The translations under genes were made by a program, and so were the position numbers. Source: Octopus vulgaris (lineage: Eukaryota). From it: a stretch of 64,000 nt of DNA. Where the stretch lies: contig OX597823.1 of NCBI GenBank assembly GCA_951406725.2, positions 84,568,001 through 84,632,000 on the forward strand, in the 5' to 3' direction. The notes beneath the pieces are model-generated. The model searched no databases. It had not been told where the DNA came from and worked only from the letters and a program-made list of their open reading frames with translations. Below, piece after piece: positions 728-61,925 of the stretch; positions within the stretch are counted from its first letter, which is position 1, and each line of letters opens with the position of its first letter.

Positions 728-3222
728 GTTTAAGAAGAGAGAACAGGACGTTTAAGAAGAGAGAGTAAGGACGTTTAAGAAGAGAGAACGATAAAACAGC
801 GCTCCGAAATCTATCCACAAATATGGAAAACAAAGACAACACATGGAGCCAAAAATTTACTGACAAAGGATTGGACTATATCCGAGTAAGTAATACTCAT
901 TGAAATTTATTACTATTTTCGAAACGAAATGATATATTTTAACTCGATATCATCTCCTCCTCTAACACAACACATGTAAACATGCGTGGTACATTACGAT
1001 CCATCAACACCAGATCATCTCCGACCCCAAACACCATGTACAAAAAAACTACGAAGAAATTAAATAACACCGATATTATTCAACCCTAGAATAACAATCG
1101 GGAAGTACGTACTTTAAACTTACAACATAAAATGTACGAAAAACAACACGTGCAAAACAAAGTGACAACAGAAATGAACGGCCCGGTACCCTACGAAAAT
1201 GACGACCGTCAAAATAATGGGCCAGACGTTGTTCATGTCCCGCAAATAAAACCCAAAAGACATAAATGGACACGTGAGGAATACATTTCTATCCTACACG
1301 CTCACTTTACAGCAGTGCTCTACCCAAAGAATGAAAACACAACAACACATACATATAAAATATGGAAGGAAAATAATATAAATATAGACTTGGATACAGC
1401 AATGAACCCTAATAAACTAGCTAACGTACGAAGATACATTCTCAACGCAAAAAAAATATCAGAAATAGAAATAGAACATCTAAAAGAAAAAATACATCAG
1501 GAAAATGTAGATAGAAGCCGCACAACAATGCCCAATAATATAAACACTGAAATAGTAAAACACGAAGACAAACGCAACATTCCCAACAAACGCGATGTAA
1601 ACAAAAAACAACAAACCCAGACCGTAAGGATGCATAATAATACACGACAAACAGCAAGCCAAAACATGACAAACAAACATACAAATAAGAAAGAAAGTGA
1701 CACAAATCTAAAATCTGGAAACAACGAAGGGGAGCCTAATGATTATGATAATATAAAAAGTAGAATAATTAAAGAGCTGAAAACCACAGAGCTCAAAATG
1801 AACCACCGACCATACCTCCCAAAAATCAAAATAGACGAAACAACAACACCAATTATAAACAGCATAAACCTAGCCGTCACGGAACTAATAGCCACTGAAA
1901 CAAAAAGCGATATCACTGAGCTAAATGACTTAGTATACGCAGCAGCCACTGCAGACACAAAAGAAGCTGGATACTCACTCAAACCCGTCCAAACAGGAGT
2001 ACCACCAGCCAAACAAACCCTGTGGATAAATAACATCCAAAACAAAATACAAAAAAATGAGAAAAGATCTGTCGATTCTTAATGAAATCAGTAGACAATC
2101 AACGCTACTGAGCAACAAAAAGAAAACAAAAATACTACGCAAATACAACATCACAGAAAAAGATGTACCTGAGATAAAAGAAAAGCTAAAGCAAGATATC
2201 CTTGCTAAAGCAAGATATCCTTGCTAAAGCAAGATATCCAACAAAAAGAAAACAAAAATACTACGCAAATACAACATCACAGAAAAAGATGTACCTGAGA
2301 TAAAAGAAAAGCTAAAGCAAGATATCCTTGCTAAAGCAAGATATCCTTGCTAAAGCAAGATATCCTTGCCAAAGCACAAAGGATCCGCCGGTATGAGAAA
2401 CGCCAGCGCTTCTATGAACAAAACAAAAAGTTCAACTCCAACCCCCAAAAGGTCTACCAAGAACTTGGCAAAAATAAAATAGAAATCACTGCAGTACCAA
2501 CGGCAGAAGTGGAAGAATTCTGGAGAGAAATACGGTCGGCGAACAAACAACCAAAAAAATGGAGTATTAAAACAACAAACGCAGCATCTGAGCAACTTTG
2601 GACCCCAAATGGCTCACGAAGGGGAAAACCATCTTAATTCCCAAATCGAATGAGACAGCAAAACCAAAAAATACAGACCAATAACCTGTCTCCCTGTAAT
2701 GTACAAGGCATTTACAGCAGTGATATCGCAAAGGTTGAACAAACACCTGGACGAAAACAACCTGTTTACAGAAGATCAGAAAGGATGCCGCAAAGGCTCA
2801 TATGGCTCTAAAGATCAACTAATGATTAATAAAGCCATAACTGAAGACAGCCACAGAAAGAAGAAAGGCCTCAGTATGGCCTGGATCGACTACAAAAAGG
2901 CGTTTGATAGCATCCCCCACACATGGATCTTCGAAACACTAGCCATTAACAAAGTAGCACCAACAATTATAAAATTCATAGGACACTCTATGAATAAATG
3001 GCAAACAGTCCTACACCTCCAAACAAAAGAGGGACTCACAAAAACCAAAGACATCCCCATTAGAAGAGGAATATTCCAGGGAGACACGCTCTCTCCACTC
3101 CTTTTCTGCTTGGCATTATCACCTCTATATGATATGCTAAATAGTACAGGATGCGGATATAAATGTTACGGCAAAACGATCAGCCACCTTTTATATATGG
3201 ATGACCTAAAACTATACGCTGT
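726..3222 (+). mobile_element. 5' part of an R4/Dong-clade non-LTR retrotransposon, disrupted and truncated just after the RT active site
   Basis: Starts directly after (TAA)n. N-terminal motif KWTREEY..NKLANVRRYIL (ORF 1132-2082); AKAQRIRRYEKR..QNKKF..FW (2347-2637); RT motifs WLTKGKTILIPK, YRPITCLP.MYK, QKGC, AWIDYKKAFDS, RGIFQGDTLSPLLF, HLLYMDDLKLYA (2600-3222). Contains frameshifts, an internal duplication and a deletion near 2600. Confidence 0.92.
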
Positions 3223-3794
3223 GTAGGGTGGAAGATTGCAAAGTGGTGTTTGTGGTGGTTGTTGTGATGGTGGTTGTTGGGGTGCTGCTGGTGGTTGTGG
3301 TGTTGGTGATGGTTGTGGTGTAGGTGGAGGTTCTGGTGCTGGGGTGGTTGTAGTGTTTATAGTGATGGTTGTGATGACGGTATGATGATAGTAGTCATTA
3401 TGGTGGTGCTGGCAGTGGTAGTGATGATGGTGATGGTGATGATGGTGGTAGAAGTGATGGTGTTGGTGACGATGTTGGTGGTAATCGTGTTAGTGGTGGG
3501 GATAGCGATGGTGATGGAAGAGGTAATGGTCATCATACTATAAGAGAATGAGTACGACGTTGTAATGATGCTGTCAATCAGCTGGCTTTAATTTCTGATA
3601 TAGGAACAAACCCATATATTTTATGGGGAGGGGTAGTCTATTAACTCTACCCGAGTATTTGACTGGTATTCAAATTGACTCCGGAAGGATAAAAATCTGA
3701 CCATGGCAGATTTCGAAATTAGAAGGTAGAAGGAACGGAAAACAAAGACTGAGGAAAGATATTTCTGCTTTCGTTTCACTCCTCTCTACTATCT

Positions 3795-9859: not shown

Positions 9860-10462
9860 TCTAATCTAGGCATAAGACCTGAAATTTTGGCGGGAAGGGG
9901 GGGGGCAGTCGATTACATCGACACCAGTACGCAACTGGTACTTAATTTGTCGACCCCCGAAAGGATGAAAGGTAAAGTCGACCGCGGCGGAATTTGAACC
10001 CAGAACGTAAAATCACTAAGCATTTCGCCCGGCGTGCTAACGTTTCTTATTTCTTTATTGCCCACAAGGGGCTAAACATAGAGGGGACAAACAAGGACAG
10101 ACAAAGGGATTAAGTCGATTACATCGACCCCAGTGCATAACTGGTACTTAATTTATCGACCCCGAATGGATGAAAGTCAAAGTTGACCTCGGCGGAATTT
10201 GAACTCAGAAGGGAAAGGCAGACGAAATACCTATTTCTTTACTACCCACAAGGGGCTAAACACAGAGAGGACAAACAAGGACAGACAAACGGATTAAGTC
10301 GATTATATCGACCCCAGTGCGTAACTGGTACTTATTTAATCGACCCCGAAATGATGAAAGGCAAAGTTGACCTCGGCGGAATTTGAATTCAGAACGTAAC
10401 GGTAGACGAAATATCACTAAGTATTTCGGCCGGCGTGCTAACGTTTCTGCCAGCTCGCCGCC
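9860..10462 (-). mobile_element. SINE family A, trimer with two different junction types
   Basis: Three copies of the family A core, with junctions at 10046/10047 and 10230/10231. Confidence 0.9.
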
Positions 10463-11152
10463 TTAAGAAGGAAAAAAAAAATAATGAAGAAAAAACGATC
10501 GAACGATGGATAGAAGAAGTAAAGAAAAGATATCGTAAACAATGGAGAGGAGAAAGGGAAGCAATGGCAGCAGACGGAAGCAAGTAGAAGAAAACCGGAA
10601 AGGAACTTCGACATTGACAGTTTGGTAAAGAGAGAGAGAGAAAGAAGTTATATGAAATCAACAAACATCTTGAAGCAACTCTCAGTTGTGTCCTTTCTGT
10701 CTTCTCCTGACCCATACACACATCAGCAGCCATTCAGATTTATAATATAATAACAATAACAAACAGCAACAACAATAACAAACAACAACAACAATAACAA
10801 CAACGGCAACAAAGAAATAGTATCAACAATGGCGAGAATAATTGCAAATGCAAATACAATACAATTGAAAAATACAGTCATATAGAAATTTTAAAGAAAA
10901 TCATGTAAAAAAAAAACAGAGACAATATTATGATAAAGAGGTTTAAGAGCGTTGGCCGCAATTAACATACCGCCATTATAATAATCATGTTGATTTCTAT
11001 AGCCATCTGTGTATCATACTTCTGTAAATACATCACGAAATAGCAAATTTACCCTGGTATTCGCCCATGATAATATCGTTTTGGGACGTACTATGTTAAA
11101 AACCACATACACACATATATATAGCTGTAGCAAAAAAAAAGCATCCTGCAAG

Positions 11153-11204
<52 letters not shown>

Positions 11205-11206
11205 TG

Positions 11207-11716
11207 AGGCTTTCCTATTTGGAAGCCTCTTAATGTGTTTTAATGTACACGATATTTTTATGTGAATAATATGTATATATATATTTTGTGCTAGGCCACT
11301 GGTAATAATAATTTCTATAATTTTTATTACCCTAATATTATTTATTATGTTTAAATACGTTTTGATAAATTTTTTCGAATTTTTTCCAGCATCCTCTCAG
11401 TCGCCGGACATAAACTGCATCTGCGCAGTGCATTTGAAAAGTTAGAATATACAGGCAGCAAGTTTACATGCGGAGCTAGTTGTGTGTATATTTAAAATCT
11501 AAAGGCTACCTACTGATGAAGACTAGCCTCAGTAAATATTTTTTTTACTGAAATTAGTGAGAAACCATGGTCTAGGAACTAAATTAGATGGTAAACGTTT
11601 TTATTTTCATTCCTTTCGAGAATTTATCCCTAATTAGTGGTTTGAGTTTTCTACTGCTCTTTCTAGCACAAGGCTTTCCTATTTAGAAGCTTCTTAATGT
11701 GTTTTAATGTACACGA
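11207..11716 (+). mobile_element. Non-coding hammerhead-containing element (Penelope pLTR/retrozyme-like) with a 46-bp terminal direct repeat
   Basis: AGGCTTTCCTATTT(G/A)GAAGC(C/T)TCTTAATGTGTTTTAATGTACACGA at 11207-11252 and 11671-11716, enclosing a hammerhead. Confidence 0.7.
11509..11576 (+). ncRNA. Type I hammerhead ribozyme
   Basis: Stem I CCTA/TAGG; core CTGATGA (11513-11519); long stem II (ACTAG/TTAGT and TCAGTAAA/TTTACTGA); GAAA (11561-11564); palindromic stem III CCATGG; cleavage triplet GTC ending at 11572. Confidence 0.8.
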
Positions 11717-12263
11717 AATTTTGTAGAATTCTTTTGCCACCAGCGTTCCTGGCCGTTCCTTTATTGTTGATGTTGAACTTAAAAATGGTCTATGACTATT
11801 TTAATTTTTCCTACTAGGCCGCTGGTGGCAAAAGAATTCTACAAAATTTTTTTTGCCACCCTATATTGATTAATTATGAATTTTCTGGTTAATTCCGTAA
11901 TGGAATCGACGGCTTATATTTATTTGCTGCCGATAAATTTGGCGCGAGTGCGACGATTTGAAAATTTTAGGTCAGATATAAACTTGGCAACGTCGGAAAT
12001 GCCTCGTGAAAATATCTGTTCCGTCTTGGGCTATTTCTTACTGAAGAATCTGAGGGCCTGTGGAAGATTGGCTTGATTTAATTTAATCAGGTTAGTTTAC
12101 CATTAATCAGCAGATGAAACGGTATATCGTATAAGAAATTACAGGGTAAATGTTTTTAAAATTTTCTCCTGGTTTACTGAATTAACTTTTATTTGCGGTT
12201 GAAGCTTTGGCTGTTATTTCTAGTGGGTGAATGGCCTATTATGGCCGTTCCTTTATTGTTGAT
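11716..12263 (+). mobile_element. Second hammerhead-containing non-coding element, with an inverted 5' segment and terminal direct repeat
   Basis: 11716-11745 is the reverse complement of 11820-11849. TGGCCGTTCCTTTATTGTTGAT occurs at 11750 and 12242. Confidence 0.7.
12033..12139 (+). ncRNA. Type I hammerhead ribozyme
   Basis: 8-bp stem I ATTTCTTA/TAAGAAAT; core CTGAAGA (12041-12047); stem II closed by ATCTG/CAGAT with a G-U-rich inner helix; GAAA (12116-12119); stem III CGGTATATCG; triplet GTA ending at 12131. Confidence 0.88.
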
Positions 12264-12751
12264 ATATATATATATATATATATATATGGTGTTCATTTCC
12301 ATTTTATGTTTTCTTTAAAATATATATATATACAATTCTTTAAATTATATATATATATATATAATAATATACAAAATGGGACAAGAACGCAAAACATCCG
12401 GACAACTAGGTGATACAAAAAGGGACAACAAAACATCCAGATAGACGATACAAAAAAGCAAAAGAAAACACGGACGGGTCATTCGAAGCCTTTTATCTTC
12501 AGTCAAGAACCGAATCATCCTCGCAATTTCGGCTGATTAATCTTGTGATTGCTCCAATCTGGCCAGCCCCAAGGAAAAACTAAGCTAAGAGCAGTTAGAT
12601 TCCTTGGAAAAAAGTATCGAATGTATACGAAACAAGGACGGAAAAACAGACGATGTTACACGAATATATATACAAAAGTACAATAACAATATTAACAACA
12701 GAACATAACAACAGGCGTCTTTCGACTGGGGACGAACTGAATTCGGCTGGC

Positions 12752-31209: not shown

Positions 31210-31799
31210 GCTTTATTGCCTACAAGGAGCTAAACATAGAGAGGACAAACAAGACAAACGGATTAAGTCTATTATATCGACCCCAGTGCGTAACTGGTAC
31301 TTATTTAATCGACCCCGAAAGGATGAAAGGCAAAGTCGACCTCGGCGGAATTTGAACTCAGAACGTAGCGGCAGACAAAATACCTATTTCTTTACTACCC
31401 ACAAGGGGCTAAACACAGAGAGGACAAACAAGGACAGACAAACGGATTAAGTCGATTATATCGACCCCAGTGCGTAACTGGTACGTATTTAATCGACTCT
31501 GAAAGGATGAAAGGTAAAGTCGACCTCGGCGGAATTTGAACTCGGAACATAACGGAAGGCGAAATGCCTATTTGTTTACTACCCACAACGGGCTAAACAC
31601 AGAGAGGACAAACAAGTACAGACAAACGGATTAAGTCAATTATATCGACACCAGTGCGTAACTGGTACTTATTTAATCGAATCCGAAAGGATGAAAGGCA
31701 AAGTCGACCTCGGCAGAATCTGAACTCAGAACGTAGCGGCAGACGAAATAGCGCTAAACATTTCGTCCGGCGTGCTAACGATTCTGACAGCTCACCGCC
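31208..31799 (-). mobile_element. SINE family A, trimer (184-bp period)
   Basis: Junctions at 31383/31384 and 31567/31568; only one tRNA head, at about 31750-31799. Confidence 0.92.
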
Positions 31800-33060: not shown

Positions 33061-33064
<4 letters not shown>

Positions 33065-33756
33065 GATAAGATCCTTAATTTAAAAATAAAATAACGAGTT
33101 TATCAAGTGGTCAGTATGGAAAAAATATCCTTCAAATGTAATAATTTTTGTTTTCTTTCCCTGTTTATATATGGACTATTAAAGTGGTTTTAGAGTCAGA
33201 TAATGGCTGCTATTTTCAGCATGGTTGTATCTCGTAGATGTCCTAATTTATAATTTTAATAATTATTACCTTTGAAGGTTATTTTTTCCATGCTGACCAC
33301 TTGATAAAATCGTTAATTTATTCTTAAATTAACGATCTTATCCTTATTTATATAAATTTAGATATATTTCGTCACTGTATTTACTGCGGCGATATTTTGA
33401 CCATATCTCACATGGAATTAAACGGCGGGGATTTTGAACTGGCCATGATGCATACGTGCATATATATATGTAGGTATACGTTCGTATATGTAAGTATTCG
33501 TATGCTGTGCTTATATATATATATGTATTTATGTTTCTTTTCCGTGTGTATTCTACTGACGAGGCAAAGCATTAGTAAATGCAAAGTCAGAAATCTGGGA
33601 TCTAGAATTATCCAGTAATTTTTTACTAGTTTCATCTTGTCTCTTTGTTTTCTTTCCGTGTTGATTTATGGACAATTAAGATGGTTTTAGAGTCAGATCA
33701 TGGCTGCTATTTTCAGCACGGTGGTATCTCGTAGATACCCTAATTTATAATTTTAA

Positions 33757-33758
<2 letters not shown>
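33061..33758 (+). mobile_element. Third hammerhead-containing non-coding element (inverted 5' segment plus 113-bp terminal direct repeat)
   Basis: 33061-33146 is inverted relative to 33261-33346. 33149-33261 is directly repeated at 33646-33758 (offset 497). Confidence 0.8.
33550..33608 (+). ncRNA. Type I hammerhead ribozyme
   Basis: Stem I ATTCTA/TAGAAT; core CTGACGA (33556-33562); stem II GGC/GTC plus GCATT/AATGC; GAAA (33590-33593); short stem III TCTGGGA; triplet ATC ending at 33602. Confidence 0.82.
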
Positions 33759-33806
<48 letters not shown>

Positions 33807-35617: not shown

Positions 35618-36298
35618 GATGAGGATGATGATGATGACAACGATGATGACGAGGACGACGACAACGACGACGACGACGACGATGATGATACAGACGACAG
35701 CGATGACGAATTTTTTCCCTCAACAATACTTAATAATAAATGATGGTCGTAGACAATGCGAAGAGCTGAGATGAAAATCTTGAAAATACCACAAGCCAAA
35801 TCATTATGTTCGCTGAAAGGCTACAACAATAATTTCACCGGCGAAATTATCTGACATAGGTTTAATAGAACCTAGTTCTACCTGCAGGCATAACAGACCA
35901 ATAAGTAGCTCTTTTGACATAGTGCGGACATTTAAAAGGGGAGAAAAACAGTCCTTAAAGAGGGATAATAGTACTTTACCTATTTTGCTAGACAAAATAA
36001 GCGGAACAATGAATGTATGAAAACATTCAGAAGACCTAATCTTCGTTTTGACCGTTGCTTATTTGTGAATAAGTGAATGTGAGAATGGATAAAAACACGA
36101 ATGAACGAATGAGAGAATGTGTTATTATTAATATATGTGTGTATGTGTATCTGAATAGCGCATGAATGTTTGTATGTATGTATGGTTGGATGAATGGATG
36201 AAGGCCTGTATGTAGGTTGGCATAGGTACATCTGCATGTGTTCGTATATAGATAATTTATTTATTTATTTATTTAAAGGACATAGTACTTACCTTTAA

Positions 36299-36353
36299 GT
36301 ACTACTAAGAGTTTCATATGTTGAGAAATGCCTCAAATATATTCATCAGGCAC
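36299..36353 (-). ncRNA. Type I hammerhead ribozyme inside a ~145-bp imperfect palindrome (about 36265-36410)
   Basis: Minus strand: GTGC CTGATGA ATAT-ATTTGAG-GCATTT-CTCAA-C-ATAT GAAA CT-CTT-AG TA GTAC. Stem I is GTGC/GTAC with one G-U pair. Confidence 0.75.
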
Positions 36354-36569
36354 AAACCATATGAAACTATTTGTAGCACCTAAAAACATGTATTGAATCC
36401 TTAAATAGATAGTGTGCATGTGTGTAAGTGTGTACATTGATAGATAAAGAAATAAATAGATAAAGAAATAGATAGATGGATAGATTGATAGATAGGTAGA
36501 TAGGTAGCTAGGTATATACTAACTCATTTCACTTTTCATTAATGCATTAGATTAATGTATTGGAGTTTA

Positions 36570-53235: not shown

Positions 53236-53759
53236 TATGTTCAAACCGAATACAAGGTCTCGATGCCTGAGATAGAGTGGATTCCATTAGAGACACCTAA
53301 GGAGCCAAGTGTAGATGTTAAACATGGATGATGGATTAAGTCCACTAACAATGAAAGCCTTTGGGGGATTTGAAGTGAGGAAACAAACAGCCGAAACGAA
53401 CACCGCTCTCGCTGTGTTCGTGCTCTGCTCGTAGTTGTGTTCCAGTTCCAACTCGTGCTGGTGCTCGCAGCCGTGTAGGTGCTCGTCGTCGCGCTCGTCC
53501 TCGTAGGTTTGTTTGCGGTGGTAATCATACACGTCCCCGTTGTCGTACCCGCATTCGTTGTCGAGCTCGTTCTTGTCCACGCAGTCTTGCTCGTAGTCAT
53601 GAGCGTAATCGCCCCCGTTGACGTGTTCGTTTTCGTTGTCGTGCTCGTCCGCGTTGTCGTGGTCGTGTTTGTAGTCGTCCATTTTGTCGTGCTCATGTGT
53701 AAATTTAGTAGGCGGAAATTGAGTAGAAGACTACAGTCGTATGTGTTTAAATGCATAAG

Positions 53760-54255
53760 TGTATGCGAGTGTATGCCTCCCTTTTTGTGTTTGTTCACCT
53801 CACCACTTCACAACCGGTGTCGTTTTATTTACGTCCCTAAATGTGTGCATCTGTATGCCTTCTTTTCTGTGTTTGTTCACCTCACCACTTCACAACCGGT
53901 GTCATCCGGTGTCATTTTATTTACGTTCCTAAATGTGTGCGTGTGTATGCCTTCTCTTTTGTGTTTGTTCACCTCACCATTTCACAACCGGTGTCGTTTT
54001 ATTTACGTCCCTTAATCTGTGCGCGTGTATGCCTTCTTTTCTGTGTTTGTTCACTTCACCACTTCACAACCGGTGTCGTTTTATTTACGTTTCTAAATGT
54101 ATGCATGTGTATGCCTTCTTTTCTGTGTTTGTTCACCGCACCACTTCACGACCGGTGTCGTTTTATTTACGTCCCTTAATGTGTGCGTGTGTATGCCTTC
54201 TTTTTTGTGTTTGTTAACCTCACCACTTCACAACCGGTGTCGTTTTATTTACATT
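53760..54255 (+). repeat. Minisatellite, six copies of an 82-bp unit derived from SINE family B
   Basis: GTATGCC starts at 53771, 53853, 53945, 54027, 54109 and 54191. The array runs into the rest of a family B 3' half (to about 54398). Confidence 0.92.
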
Positions 54256-60042: not shown

Positions 60043-60334
60043 ATGTAATATCATTCTTCAGAACAGTGAATATATCTTTGCAGTTAATTTGAATCACCCT
60101 CAATCTTTCGAATTCCCTGCATCCGCTACAAGATTCAAATTTTGGCGCCAGGCCAGTAATTTGAGGGAAGCGTGTAAGTAGATTACATCGATCCCAGCGC
60201 TTAACTGGTGCTTAATTTATCGATCCCGAAAGGATGAAAGGAAAAGTCAACCACGATAGAATTTGAACTGGGAACTTAAATACGGACGAAATGTTGGTAC
60301 CGTGGTTACGATTCTACCAGATTGCCGTCTTTGG

Positions 60335-60697
60335 TTTCAAATTTAGGCACAAGGCGAACAGTTTTAGGGGAGGAGACAAGTCAATTACATCAACCCCTGT
60401 GCACAGCTGGTACTTATTCTATCGATCGCAGAATTTGAACGCAGAACGTGAAGATGGAAGAAATACCTATTTCTTTACTACCCACAAGGGACTAAACATA
60501 GAGGGGACAAACAAGGACATACAAACGGATTAAGTCGATTACATCGACCCCAGTGCGTAACTGGTGCTTAATTTATCGACCCGGAAAGAATGAAAGGCAA
60601 AGTCGACCTCGGCGGAATGTGAACTCAGAACGTAGCGGCAGACGAAATACCGCTAAACATTTCGCCCGGCGTGCTAACGATTCTGCCAAGCTCACCA
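60335..60697 (-). mobile_element. SINE family A dimer
   Basis: Diverged, internally deleted tail-1 unit joined at 60466/60467 to a near-consensus tail-2 unit. Confidence 0.88.
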
Positions 60698-61305
60698 TCT
60701 TATAAGATTTTTTAATACTGTAAATAGATTTTTGGCATTTTTTTTTGTTTGTTTCATAAAACTGCTTTATAAAATCCAAGAAAATAACCTATTGCATACA
60801 TCATTTAATTAGCAGTCTCTATAATTAATAAATAATATGCCAATGTATATATATTTATCGCTTAGAAATTTATTAATTTGCTGAGAATCCGGATATTAAA
60901 AAGTATCAGATTTACTAAAGAAGTATTATAGTATATAACCTATTGTGGTTTTATAGAATTTGGAATTGGCAAATATGTTATAGTTCTGCAGACAATATCG
61001 TCAGCTAAAACTTATGTACGACAAGGGTGACAGACTAAGGAACCACAAAACGCTAAGAATTTGTACGAAGCGCCAAGAAGTATGTAGGGGTTTCGCCACA
61101 AAGAGTAGCAGCGAATATTTTCTTATATATTACACAATAATATAATGAAAAAGTAATAACTGAAAACCCACAAACAAACCATAACAGCTATATAGTTTTG
61201 AGTTAGATTCCACGCAGTGGGACCTGGAACCTTAAGCCAAGTCTGATTAACAGCTTGTGAACGAATCTGGTTAACGGTAACTGTGTGCGATTCCATTGCG
61301 TGTGC

Positions 61306-61353
<48 letters not shown>

Positions 61354-61647
61354 CTTTTACTTGTTTCAGTCATTTGCCTGTGGCCATGCTGGAGCTCCAC
61401 CTGTAGTCGAGTAAATCGACCCCAGGACTTATTCTTTGTAAGCCTAGAAATTATTCTATCGGTCGCTTTTGCCGAAGCGCTAAGTTACGGGCACGTAAGC
61501 ACACCAGCATCGGTTGTCATGCGATGTTGGAGGGACGATCACAGACACACAAACATATACAAACACATATAAATATATACACATACATATATACGACGGA
61601 CTTCTTTCAGTTTCTGTCTACCAAATCCACTCACAAGGCTTTGGTCG

Positions 61648-61925
61648 GCCTCGGTGGAATTTGAACTCAGAACATAAAGACAAACGAAATACCTATTTCT
61701 TTACTACCCACAAAGGGCTAAACACAGAGAGGACAAACAAGGACAGACAAACGGATTAAGTCGATTATATCGACCCCACTGCATAACTGATACTTTATTT
61801 ATCGACCCCGAAAGGATGAAAGGTAAAGTCGAGCTCGGTGGAATTTGAACTCAGAACGTAGCGGCAGAGGAAATACCGCTAAGCATTTCACCCAGCGTGC
61901 TAACGTTTCTGCTAGCTCGCTGCCT
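61648..61925 (-). mobile_element. SINE family A dimer fused to a family B SINE
   Basis: Junction GAAATAC|CTATTTC at 61692/61693. The residual unit merges into family B sequence at about 61650. Confidence 0.85.

What the first reader, a model, noticed from the sequence alone, without database searches (positions are those of the whole stretch)
11207..11716. Hammerhead element with 464-bp period abutting the next hammerhead element
Seen: 46-bp direct repeats (11207, 11671) flank a hammerhead at 11509-11576 with palindromic stem III CCATGG. The next hammerhead element begins where the second repeat ends. Both share a diverged block (CTAGGCCACTGGTAATAATAATTTCTATAA.. at about 11291 vs CTAGGCCGCTGGTGGCAAAAGAATTCTACAA.. 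at about 11814), although their ribozymes differ. Inference: related subfamilies were copied consecutively by template jumping, or they target each other. Two ribozymes in tandem could excise a ~560-nt RNA (11573-12131).
Basis: partly seen in the sequence, partly recalled or inferred. Interest (0 to 1): 0.7.

Follow-up and report, generated by a model that had tools for sequence, protein, structure and literature searches.

The report
Two related ribozyme retroelements stacked end-to-end
Two distantly related ~500-base non-coding repeats, each with a predicted self-cutting hammerhead RNA motif, sit end to end inside one TA microsatellite, most likely because they were inserted one after the other by a Penelope-type retrotransposon that favours TA runs, so this is likely an ordinary pile-up of known mobile elements rather than a new two-ribozyme device.

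Summary
A (11206/7-11716; 44/46 direct repeats, period 464) and B (11716-12263) each carry a type I hammerhead motif; 0 of 1000 shuffles gave two motifs. A, B and C are colinear, share two hairpins with different letters, and look like solo non-LTR retrozymes / non-autonomous Penelope-like elements (PLEs). In public contigs the B family is about 100-fold deeper than A, B copies are preceded by their own sequence, and no listed piece bridges A|B. Best reading: separate insertions into one TA run, B later. A single template jump is not excluded. The 559-nt cut-to-cut RNA is unlikely: A's motif has a G-G mismatch at the base of stem II and needs an A-type partner, which B is not. No genome was held, so the genome-wide adjacency count is still open. 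New member of a known kind; interest 0.3.

The parts
11157..11205 (.). (TA)n run, left part of the target
11207..11252 (+). Element A 5' terminal repeat (pLTR-like overrun); holds hairpin HP1 11206-11229
11301..11331 (+).
   Evidence: (z -3.6)
11509..11576 (+). Element A type I hammerhead motif, palindromic helix III, G-G mismatch at the base of stem II; predicted cut after 11572
   Evidence: family letters
11671..11716 (+). Element A 3' terminal repeat with decayed HP1 (changes at 11685 and 11691); ends 24 nt after HP1, as C ends 21 nt after its HP1
11716..11745 (-). Element B inverted tail, exact reverse complement of 11820-11849
   Evidence: 30 of 30
11750..11771 (+). Element B 5' terminal repeat
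   Evidence: 22 of 22 with 12242-12263
11824..11860 (+). Element B hairpin HP2; the inverted tail's outer end lies in its 3' arm
   Evidence: (z -5.2)
12033..12139 (+). Element B type I hammerhead motif, near-palindromic helix III; predicted cut after 12131
   Evidence: (z -3.45)
12229..12263 (+). Element B hairpin HP1 (12229-12250) and 3' terminal repeat (12242-12263)
12263..12288 (.). (TA)n run, right part of the target (12 AT units after the element)
33063..33760 (+). Element C, solitary relative used as comparison: inverted tail 33063-33146, direct repeats 33147-33261 / 33644-33758, hammerhead core 33556, (TA)n on both sides

Best explanation
A and B are two related non-coding hammerhead-motif repeats lying end to end in one (TA)n run, and they were likely inserted in two separate events by a Penelope-like reverse transcriptase/endonuclease supplied from elsewhere, with the younger and far commoner B likely landing at the first TA step behind A's 3' end. 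Inferred mechanism: the enzyme nicks AT-rich DNA and starts copying at fixed internal sites of a circular or multimeric RNA, one about 13-24 nt past hairpin HP1 (right end) and one about 80 nt further on in hairpin HP2 (inverted left end). Copying past one unit length leaves the direct repeats. The pair is likely a by-product of a shared target, not a unit.
For: Shown: same build and TA target in solitary element C. Each genomic copy runs 132-158 nt past its own cut site and repeats its end, so the template crossed the cut site. B begins with its own complete inverted left end, as C does (+78 and +83 past the 3' register). Summed contig depth over B is 109-fold (X1) and 86-fold (X5) that over A by medians. 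Listed loose ends before 11750 are B's own sequence (20 contigs in X1, 48 in X5, 2 in X6), and A-family contigs in X4 run on into TA-like flank or their own unit at 11255, 11698 and 11700. None of 32 listed pieces and no listed joint spans the A|B junction. Age: A repeats differ at 2 of 46, B at 0 of 52; a 472-nt contig is 3 letters from B, while the one long A contig differs at 32 letters plus 18 gaps. With 3 elements and 25-65 TA runs in the window, two share a run with probability 0.05-0.12. Literature: pLTR, inverted copy, tail and (TA)n bias (PMC8557442); AT-rich nicking and two internal start sites (PMC11167929); one Penelope family inserted into another (PMC3846280).
Against: No TA unit is left between A and B, which needs an edge insertion or a small deletion; that lowers the pure-chance odds by roughly ten-fold (my estimate). 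The junction has 6 of 7 letters of microhomology between A's continuation and B's tail end, which fits a jump or the reverse order equally. The age difference in the terminal repeats is not significant (Fisher p 0.22), and one search showed only 40 of 118 variant rows, 32 of 19,996 pieces and 24 of 459 loose ends. Depth is no copy number, and A may be undercounted at 85% likeness. No autonomous partner was found and no activity was measured.
Confidence: 0.6

Rival explanations
1. One insertion event: the reverse transcriptase copied B, finished its inverted tail, then jumped to an A-family RNA at its normal start site and copied A.
For: A's natural 3' end meets B's natural left end with no TA between; same orientation; 6 of 7 letters of microhomology. 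Template jumps have been proposed for Penelope (PMC3846280, passage seen).
Against: A looks more decayed than B: 2 of 46 versus 0 of 52 in terminal repeats; both A changes weaken HP1 (-13.7 to -5.3 kcal/mol); 11 versus 5 majority differences from the family in both DNA runs among the 40 rows shown. A co-inserted pair should be of one age.
Confidence: 0.18
2. B came first and A was later inserted into B's left end, because the shared endonuclease recognises tail DNA of the family (mutual targeting).
For: An ATT motif lies at the junction; the Poseidon enzyme prefers 5'-ATT-3' and the D. virilis enzyme needs the tail for cleavage (PMC11167929). B's tail is shorter than C's at its outer end by about 5 nt of register.
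Against: A appears the older copy. ATT is common in such AT-rich DNA.
Confidence: 0.15
3. A+B is a working two-ribozyme unit that releases a 559-nt chimeric RNA, which can circularise and be copied as a new family.
For: Two predicted cut sites on one strand, 559 nt apart; a joined end could form a 6-bp hybrid stem I from B's 5' strand and A's 3' strand. The piece would keep HP1 and HP2.
Against: A's motif has a G-G mismatch at the base of stem II, a 4-bp stem I and a 2-bp helix III; the active fold costs 4.5 kcal/mol over the minimum (B: 1.8), and helix III of A pairs with A (-11.2) but not with B (-3.1). In local folds A's stem I has probability 0.08 or less. No amplified junction among listed pieces. 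Only 1 of 9 tested Xenopus dimers cleaved (10.64898/2026.07.22.740005).
Confidence: 0.06

Closest known systems
Non-LTR retrozymes of animals (PMC7229834; bioRxiv 10.64898/2026.07.22.740005)
   Same: Non-coding, low-GC unit of a few hundred bases with one type I hammerhead; dispersed solo copies; thought to be moved by PLE enzymes through circular RNA.
   Different: Here each copy is one unit plus a partial repeat, not a tandem of two or more; units of 464-497 nt exceed the 170-400 nt of the 2020 paper (inside the 51-972 bp range of the preprint); two different families abut; inverted tails and TA targeting were not in the parts of those papers that I read.
Penelope-like elements, insertion signature (PMC8557442, PMC3846280, PMC11167929)
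   Same: Partial tandem giving a pseudo-LTR, inverted piece at the 5' end, extension beyond the 3' register, AT-rich or (TA)n targets, hammerhead motif, secondary insertion into another family.
   Different: No RT/endonuclease ORF; the distance between the two ends' registers is 78-83 nt, not the usual 30-40 nt tail; no partner element identified.
PLE-type minimal hammerheads (PMC4209133)
   Same: A has the extra unpaired base at the 5' side of stem II, a short stem I and a palindromic helix III suited to dimers.
   Different: A and C carry one more A before GAAA; the conserved G10.1-C11.1 pair is broken in this copy of A and is A-U in B; B has a longer helix III that could work alone.

Membership tests
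Non-LTR retrozyme | Type I hammerhead motif in the unit | tested here: met
   (descriptor scan and shuffles); no Rfam model hit
Non-LTR retrozyme | No coding capacity, low GC | tested here: met
   no ORF of 120 aa or more overlaps 11207-12263; GC 0.35 for 10001-12000
Non-LTR retrozyme | Multi-copy dispersed family | tested here: met
   5376 and 14064 contigs laid in two DNA? runs of two studies; relative C in the window
Non-LTR retrozyme, 'active' class of the 2026 preprint | Two or more tandem units of one family, each with a hammerhead | tested here: not met
   each element is one unit plus 22-46 nt; so filed as solo/monomer derivatives, a class that preprint names
Non-LTR retrozyme | Head-to-tail source arrays elsewhere in the genome | tested here: inconclusive
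   one X5 contig goes back 492 (12241 to 11750); longer terminal repeats would give the same picture
Non-LTR retrozyme | Self-cleavage and circular RNA | not testable with these tools
   only contigs were offered, no raw RNA reads
Penelope-like element | Partial tandem (pseudo-LTR) | tested here: met
   direct repeats in A, B and C
Penelope-like element | Inverted piece at the 5' end | tested here: met
   B 30 of 30, C 77 of 84; not shown for this copy of A, but opposite-strand joints at 11284 in A-family contigs
Penelope-like element | Tail of 30-40 bp | tested here: not met
   registers of the two ends are 78 and 83 nt apart
Penelope-like element (autonomous) | RT plus GIY-YIG ORF | tested here: not met
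   no ORF in the elements; so non-autonomous at most
Penelope-like element | Sequence homology to the pLTR of an autonomous partner | not testable with these tools
   no genome held
PLE-type minimal hammerhead | Palindromic helix III | tested here: met
   A self-duplex 8 of 8 pairs, B 12 of 12 with G-U
PLE-type minimal hammerhead | G10.1-C11.1 pair closing stem II | tested here: not met
   A: G opposite G; C at 11559 in 89% of X1 depth, 37% of X5, 7% of X6, the single X4 contig. B: A-U

The most novel reading that the evidence does not exclude
Related retrozyme families that share one Penelope enzyme stack on each other's ends far more often than chance, and such mixed dimers, with compatible stem I strands, release chimeric circles that found new families: a route of retrozyme evolution by stacking.
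Probability: 0.08. Interest if true: 0.65.

Novelty: new member of a known kind. Interest (0 to 1): 0.3.

Why it matters
As most likely read, it is a neat example of solo retrozymes carrying the full Penelope insertion signature, which supports the view that animal retrozymes are non-autonomous PLEs. The two hairpins kept with different letters next to the two ends point to candidate start signals for PLE reverse transcription, testable in the existing in vitro system. If mixed stacks did release chimeric circles, they would explain how new retrozyme families arise; the evidence here does not show that.

Tried and rejected
Whole-genome count: no genome held. Rfam: 0 hits at gathering over the window; 8 sub-threshold hits over 11200-12270, none a hammerhead. 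Pattern scans for relatives: 0 in metagenome contigs, 0 in viral contigs; 120 prokaryote loci were chance matches, longest BLAST match 36 nt. No RNA holder listed on record; the two RNA? runs have next to no cover at 11709-11744 (1.46 and 0), which is not evidence on expression. A hidden 16-nt inverted tail at A's left end: rejected, the 16-mer occurs 41 times in the window. RNAalifold on three sequences did not recover HP1 or HP2 because the alignment was poor; the hairpins rest on single-sequence folds of stretches that I chose by eye, so their z-scores are inflated by that choice. B-C homology alone is weak (z 1.9). One X5 contig joining 11675 to 12203 (20-nt side) is too weak to count as a chimera. 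The first C-tail count (55 of 85) was out of register and was redone. The bacterial promoter scan does not apply. Earlier findings by place and sequence: none.

Full report
Observation. The repeats at 11207 and 11671 are 44 of 46 identical with period 464. A descriptor scan finds type I hammerhead motifs with cores at 11513 (A) and 12041 (B) and predicted cuts after 11572 and 12131. Shuffles of 11207-12263 gave one motif in 8 of 1000 and two in 0 of 1000; the whole window has 4 motifs against a shuffle mean of 0.42. Rfam has no matching model at either threshold. The host is probably an octopus; that is recalled from the look of its repeats and comes from no call.

B has its own 22-nt direct repeat (11750-11771 / 12242-12263, period 492) and begins with a 30-nt inverted piece (11716-11745) that is the exact reverse complement of 11820-11849. 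The pair is flanked by (TA)n on both sides. A third element, C (33063-33760), has the same build: inverted tail 77 of 84, direct repeats 104 of 115, a hammerhead core at 33556 and (TA)n on both sides. A and B align over the whole unit (300 of 420 columns, z 9.4), A and C less well (z 5.0), B and C weakly (z 1.9). All three end 132-158 nt past their own cut site and 13-24 nt past a hairpin, HP1. The inverted tails of B and C end 78 and 83 nt beyond that register, in the 3' arm of a second hairpin, HP2. These hairpins come from folds of stretches chosen by eye; RNAalifold did not recover them.

Family context. No genome was held. Of 24 runs listed I laid 4, all contigs. Median summed depth over B is 109-fold (X1) and 86-fold (X5) that over A; depth is no copy number, and A may be undercounted. 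Listed loose ends before 11750 are B's own upstream sequence (20, 48 and 2 contigs in X1, X5, X6). A-family contigs in X4 continue into TA-like flank or into their own unit. No listed piece or joint spans the A|B junction, but only 32 of 19,996 pieces, 15 of 29 joints and 24 of 459 loose ends were shown, so this is absence in a sample. One 472-nt contig lies 3 letters from B; the one long A contig differs at 32 letters with 18 gaps. Among the 40 of 118 variant rows shown, the window departs from the majority of both DNA runs at 11 places in A and 5 in B. Terminal repeats differ at 2 of 46 in A and 0 of 52 in B (p 0.22), and both A changes weaken HP1. Together this suggests, without proving, that A is the older insertion.

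How it most likely works. Shown: non-coding units with terminal redundancy that cross their own cut site, inverted left ends, TA targets. Inferred: a PLE enzyme nicks AT-rich DNA and starts reverse transcription at fixed internal sites of a circular or multimeric RNA, and overrun gives the direct repeats. This follows published features: partial tandems, inverted 5' copies, tails and (TA)n bias (PMC8557442, passages); nicking of AT-rich DNA on both strands, also in the element's own pLTR, with two internal start sites (PMC11167929, parts 1-2 of 4); circles as more-than-unit templates (PMC4209133, parts 1-2 of 4; PMC7229834, passages and sections 14 and 17); retrozymes as non-autonomous PLE derivatives with solo copies (10.64898/2026.07.22.740005, parts 1-3 of 5; its supplements were closed and may list relevant families); one Penelope family inside another (PMC3846280, passages). 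With three elements and 25-65 TA runs in the window, two share a run with probability 0.05-0.12. The exact abutment needs B to land on the first TA step after A, or a small deletion, which is less likely by perhaps ten-fold (estimate) but expected somewhere in a large genome with a very abundant B family.

Against this reading. No TA is left at the junction, the orientation is the same, and A's continuation matches B's tail end at 6 of 7 letters. These fit a template jump or insertion of A into B's tail just as well. An ATT motif, preferred by the Poseidon enzyme, sits at the junction. Only empty-site alleles and a genome-wide count can separate the three orders of events.

The 559-nt RNA. The distance is right, and a joined end could form a 6-bp hybrid stem I. 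But A's motif here has G11521 opposite G11559 at the base of stem II (C is seen at 11559 in 89% of X1 depth, 37% of X5, 7% of X6 and the X4 contig), a 4-bp stem I and a 2-bp helix III. Its active fold costs 4.5 kcal/mol (B: 1.8). A's palindromic helix III pairs with another A (-11.2 kcal/mol) but not with B (-3.1), so B cannot be its dimer partner. In longer folds both motifs are mostly in other structures, so folding gives no firm support even for B. PLE-type motifs cut poorly in vitro (PMC4209133), and 1 of 9 Xenopus dimers cut (preprint above). No raw RNA reads were available, so ends at 11572 and 12131 were not tested.

Novelty. The elements work like solo non-LTR retrozymes with a PLE insertion signature. 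They fail the 'active tandem' definition and lack an ORF, so I file them as solo, non-autonomous members. Searches for hammerhead + octopus + Penelope, ribozyme + cephalopod + retrotransposon and retrozyme with chimeric/heterodimer/adjacent (uninformative) showed no description of these families or of mixed stacks in that library; an Octopus vulgaris repeat annotation lists PLE families and has no use of 'ribozyme' or 'retrozyme' in its main text (PMC13282606, passages). An earlier AI note describes a similar TA-targeted PLE-type repeat in another genome (unchecked). Verdict: real, new member of a known kind; adjacency most likely a by-product of a shared target. Interest 0.3.

Noticed in passing
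window 33063-33760 (+): Third, older relative (C): 84-nt inverted tail (77 of 84), 115-nt direct repeats (104 of 115), period 497, hammerhead core at 33556, (TA)n on both sides.
   Followed up: yes
window 11301-11331, 11824-11860, 33303-33342 and 11206-11229, 12229-12250, 33723-33739: Two hairpins at matching places in A, B and C with different letters (A and B HP2 differ on both sides at pairs 4-6); candidates for the signals that set the two insertion ends.
   Followed up: partly
window about 36290-36365 (-), core at 36349: A fourth hammerhead-like motif beside a (TTTA)n run, not matched by the A/B/C profile; its fold is not better than shuffles (z -1.5), so it may be chance.
   Followed up: partly
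loose end behind 12106 in X1 (2 contigs): A B-related subfamily shows helix III as the perfect palindrome ACGATGCATCGT, different in letters from B's, which favours a selected ribozyme in the family.
   Followed up: no
window 1090-3226 (+): Broken LINE-type element; 2654-3223 hits RVT_1 (E 9e-25); an exact 127-bp tandem duplication at 2113-2365.
   Followed up: partly
window 9907-10448, 31211-31750, 60134-61877: Head-to-tail copies (period about 180 nt) of an abundant SINE-like repeat; from memory it resembles octopus repeats, the only ground for thinking the host is an octopus.
   Followed up: no
window 53736-54255: Tandem array with a unit of roughly 85-90 nt.
   Followed up: no
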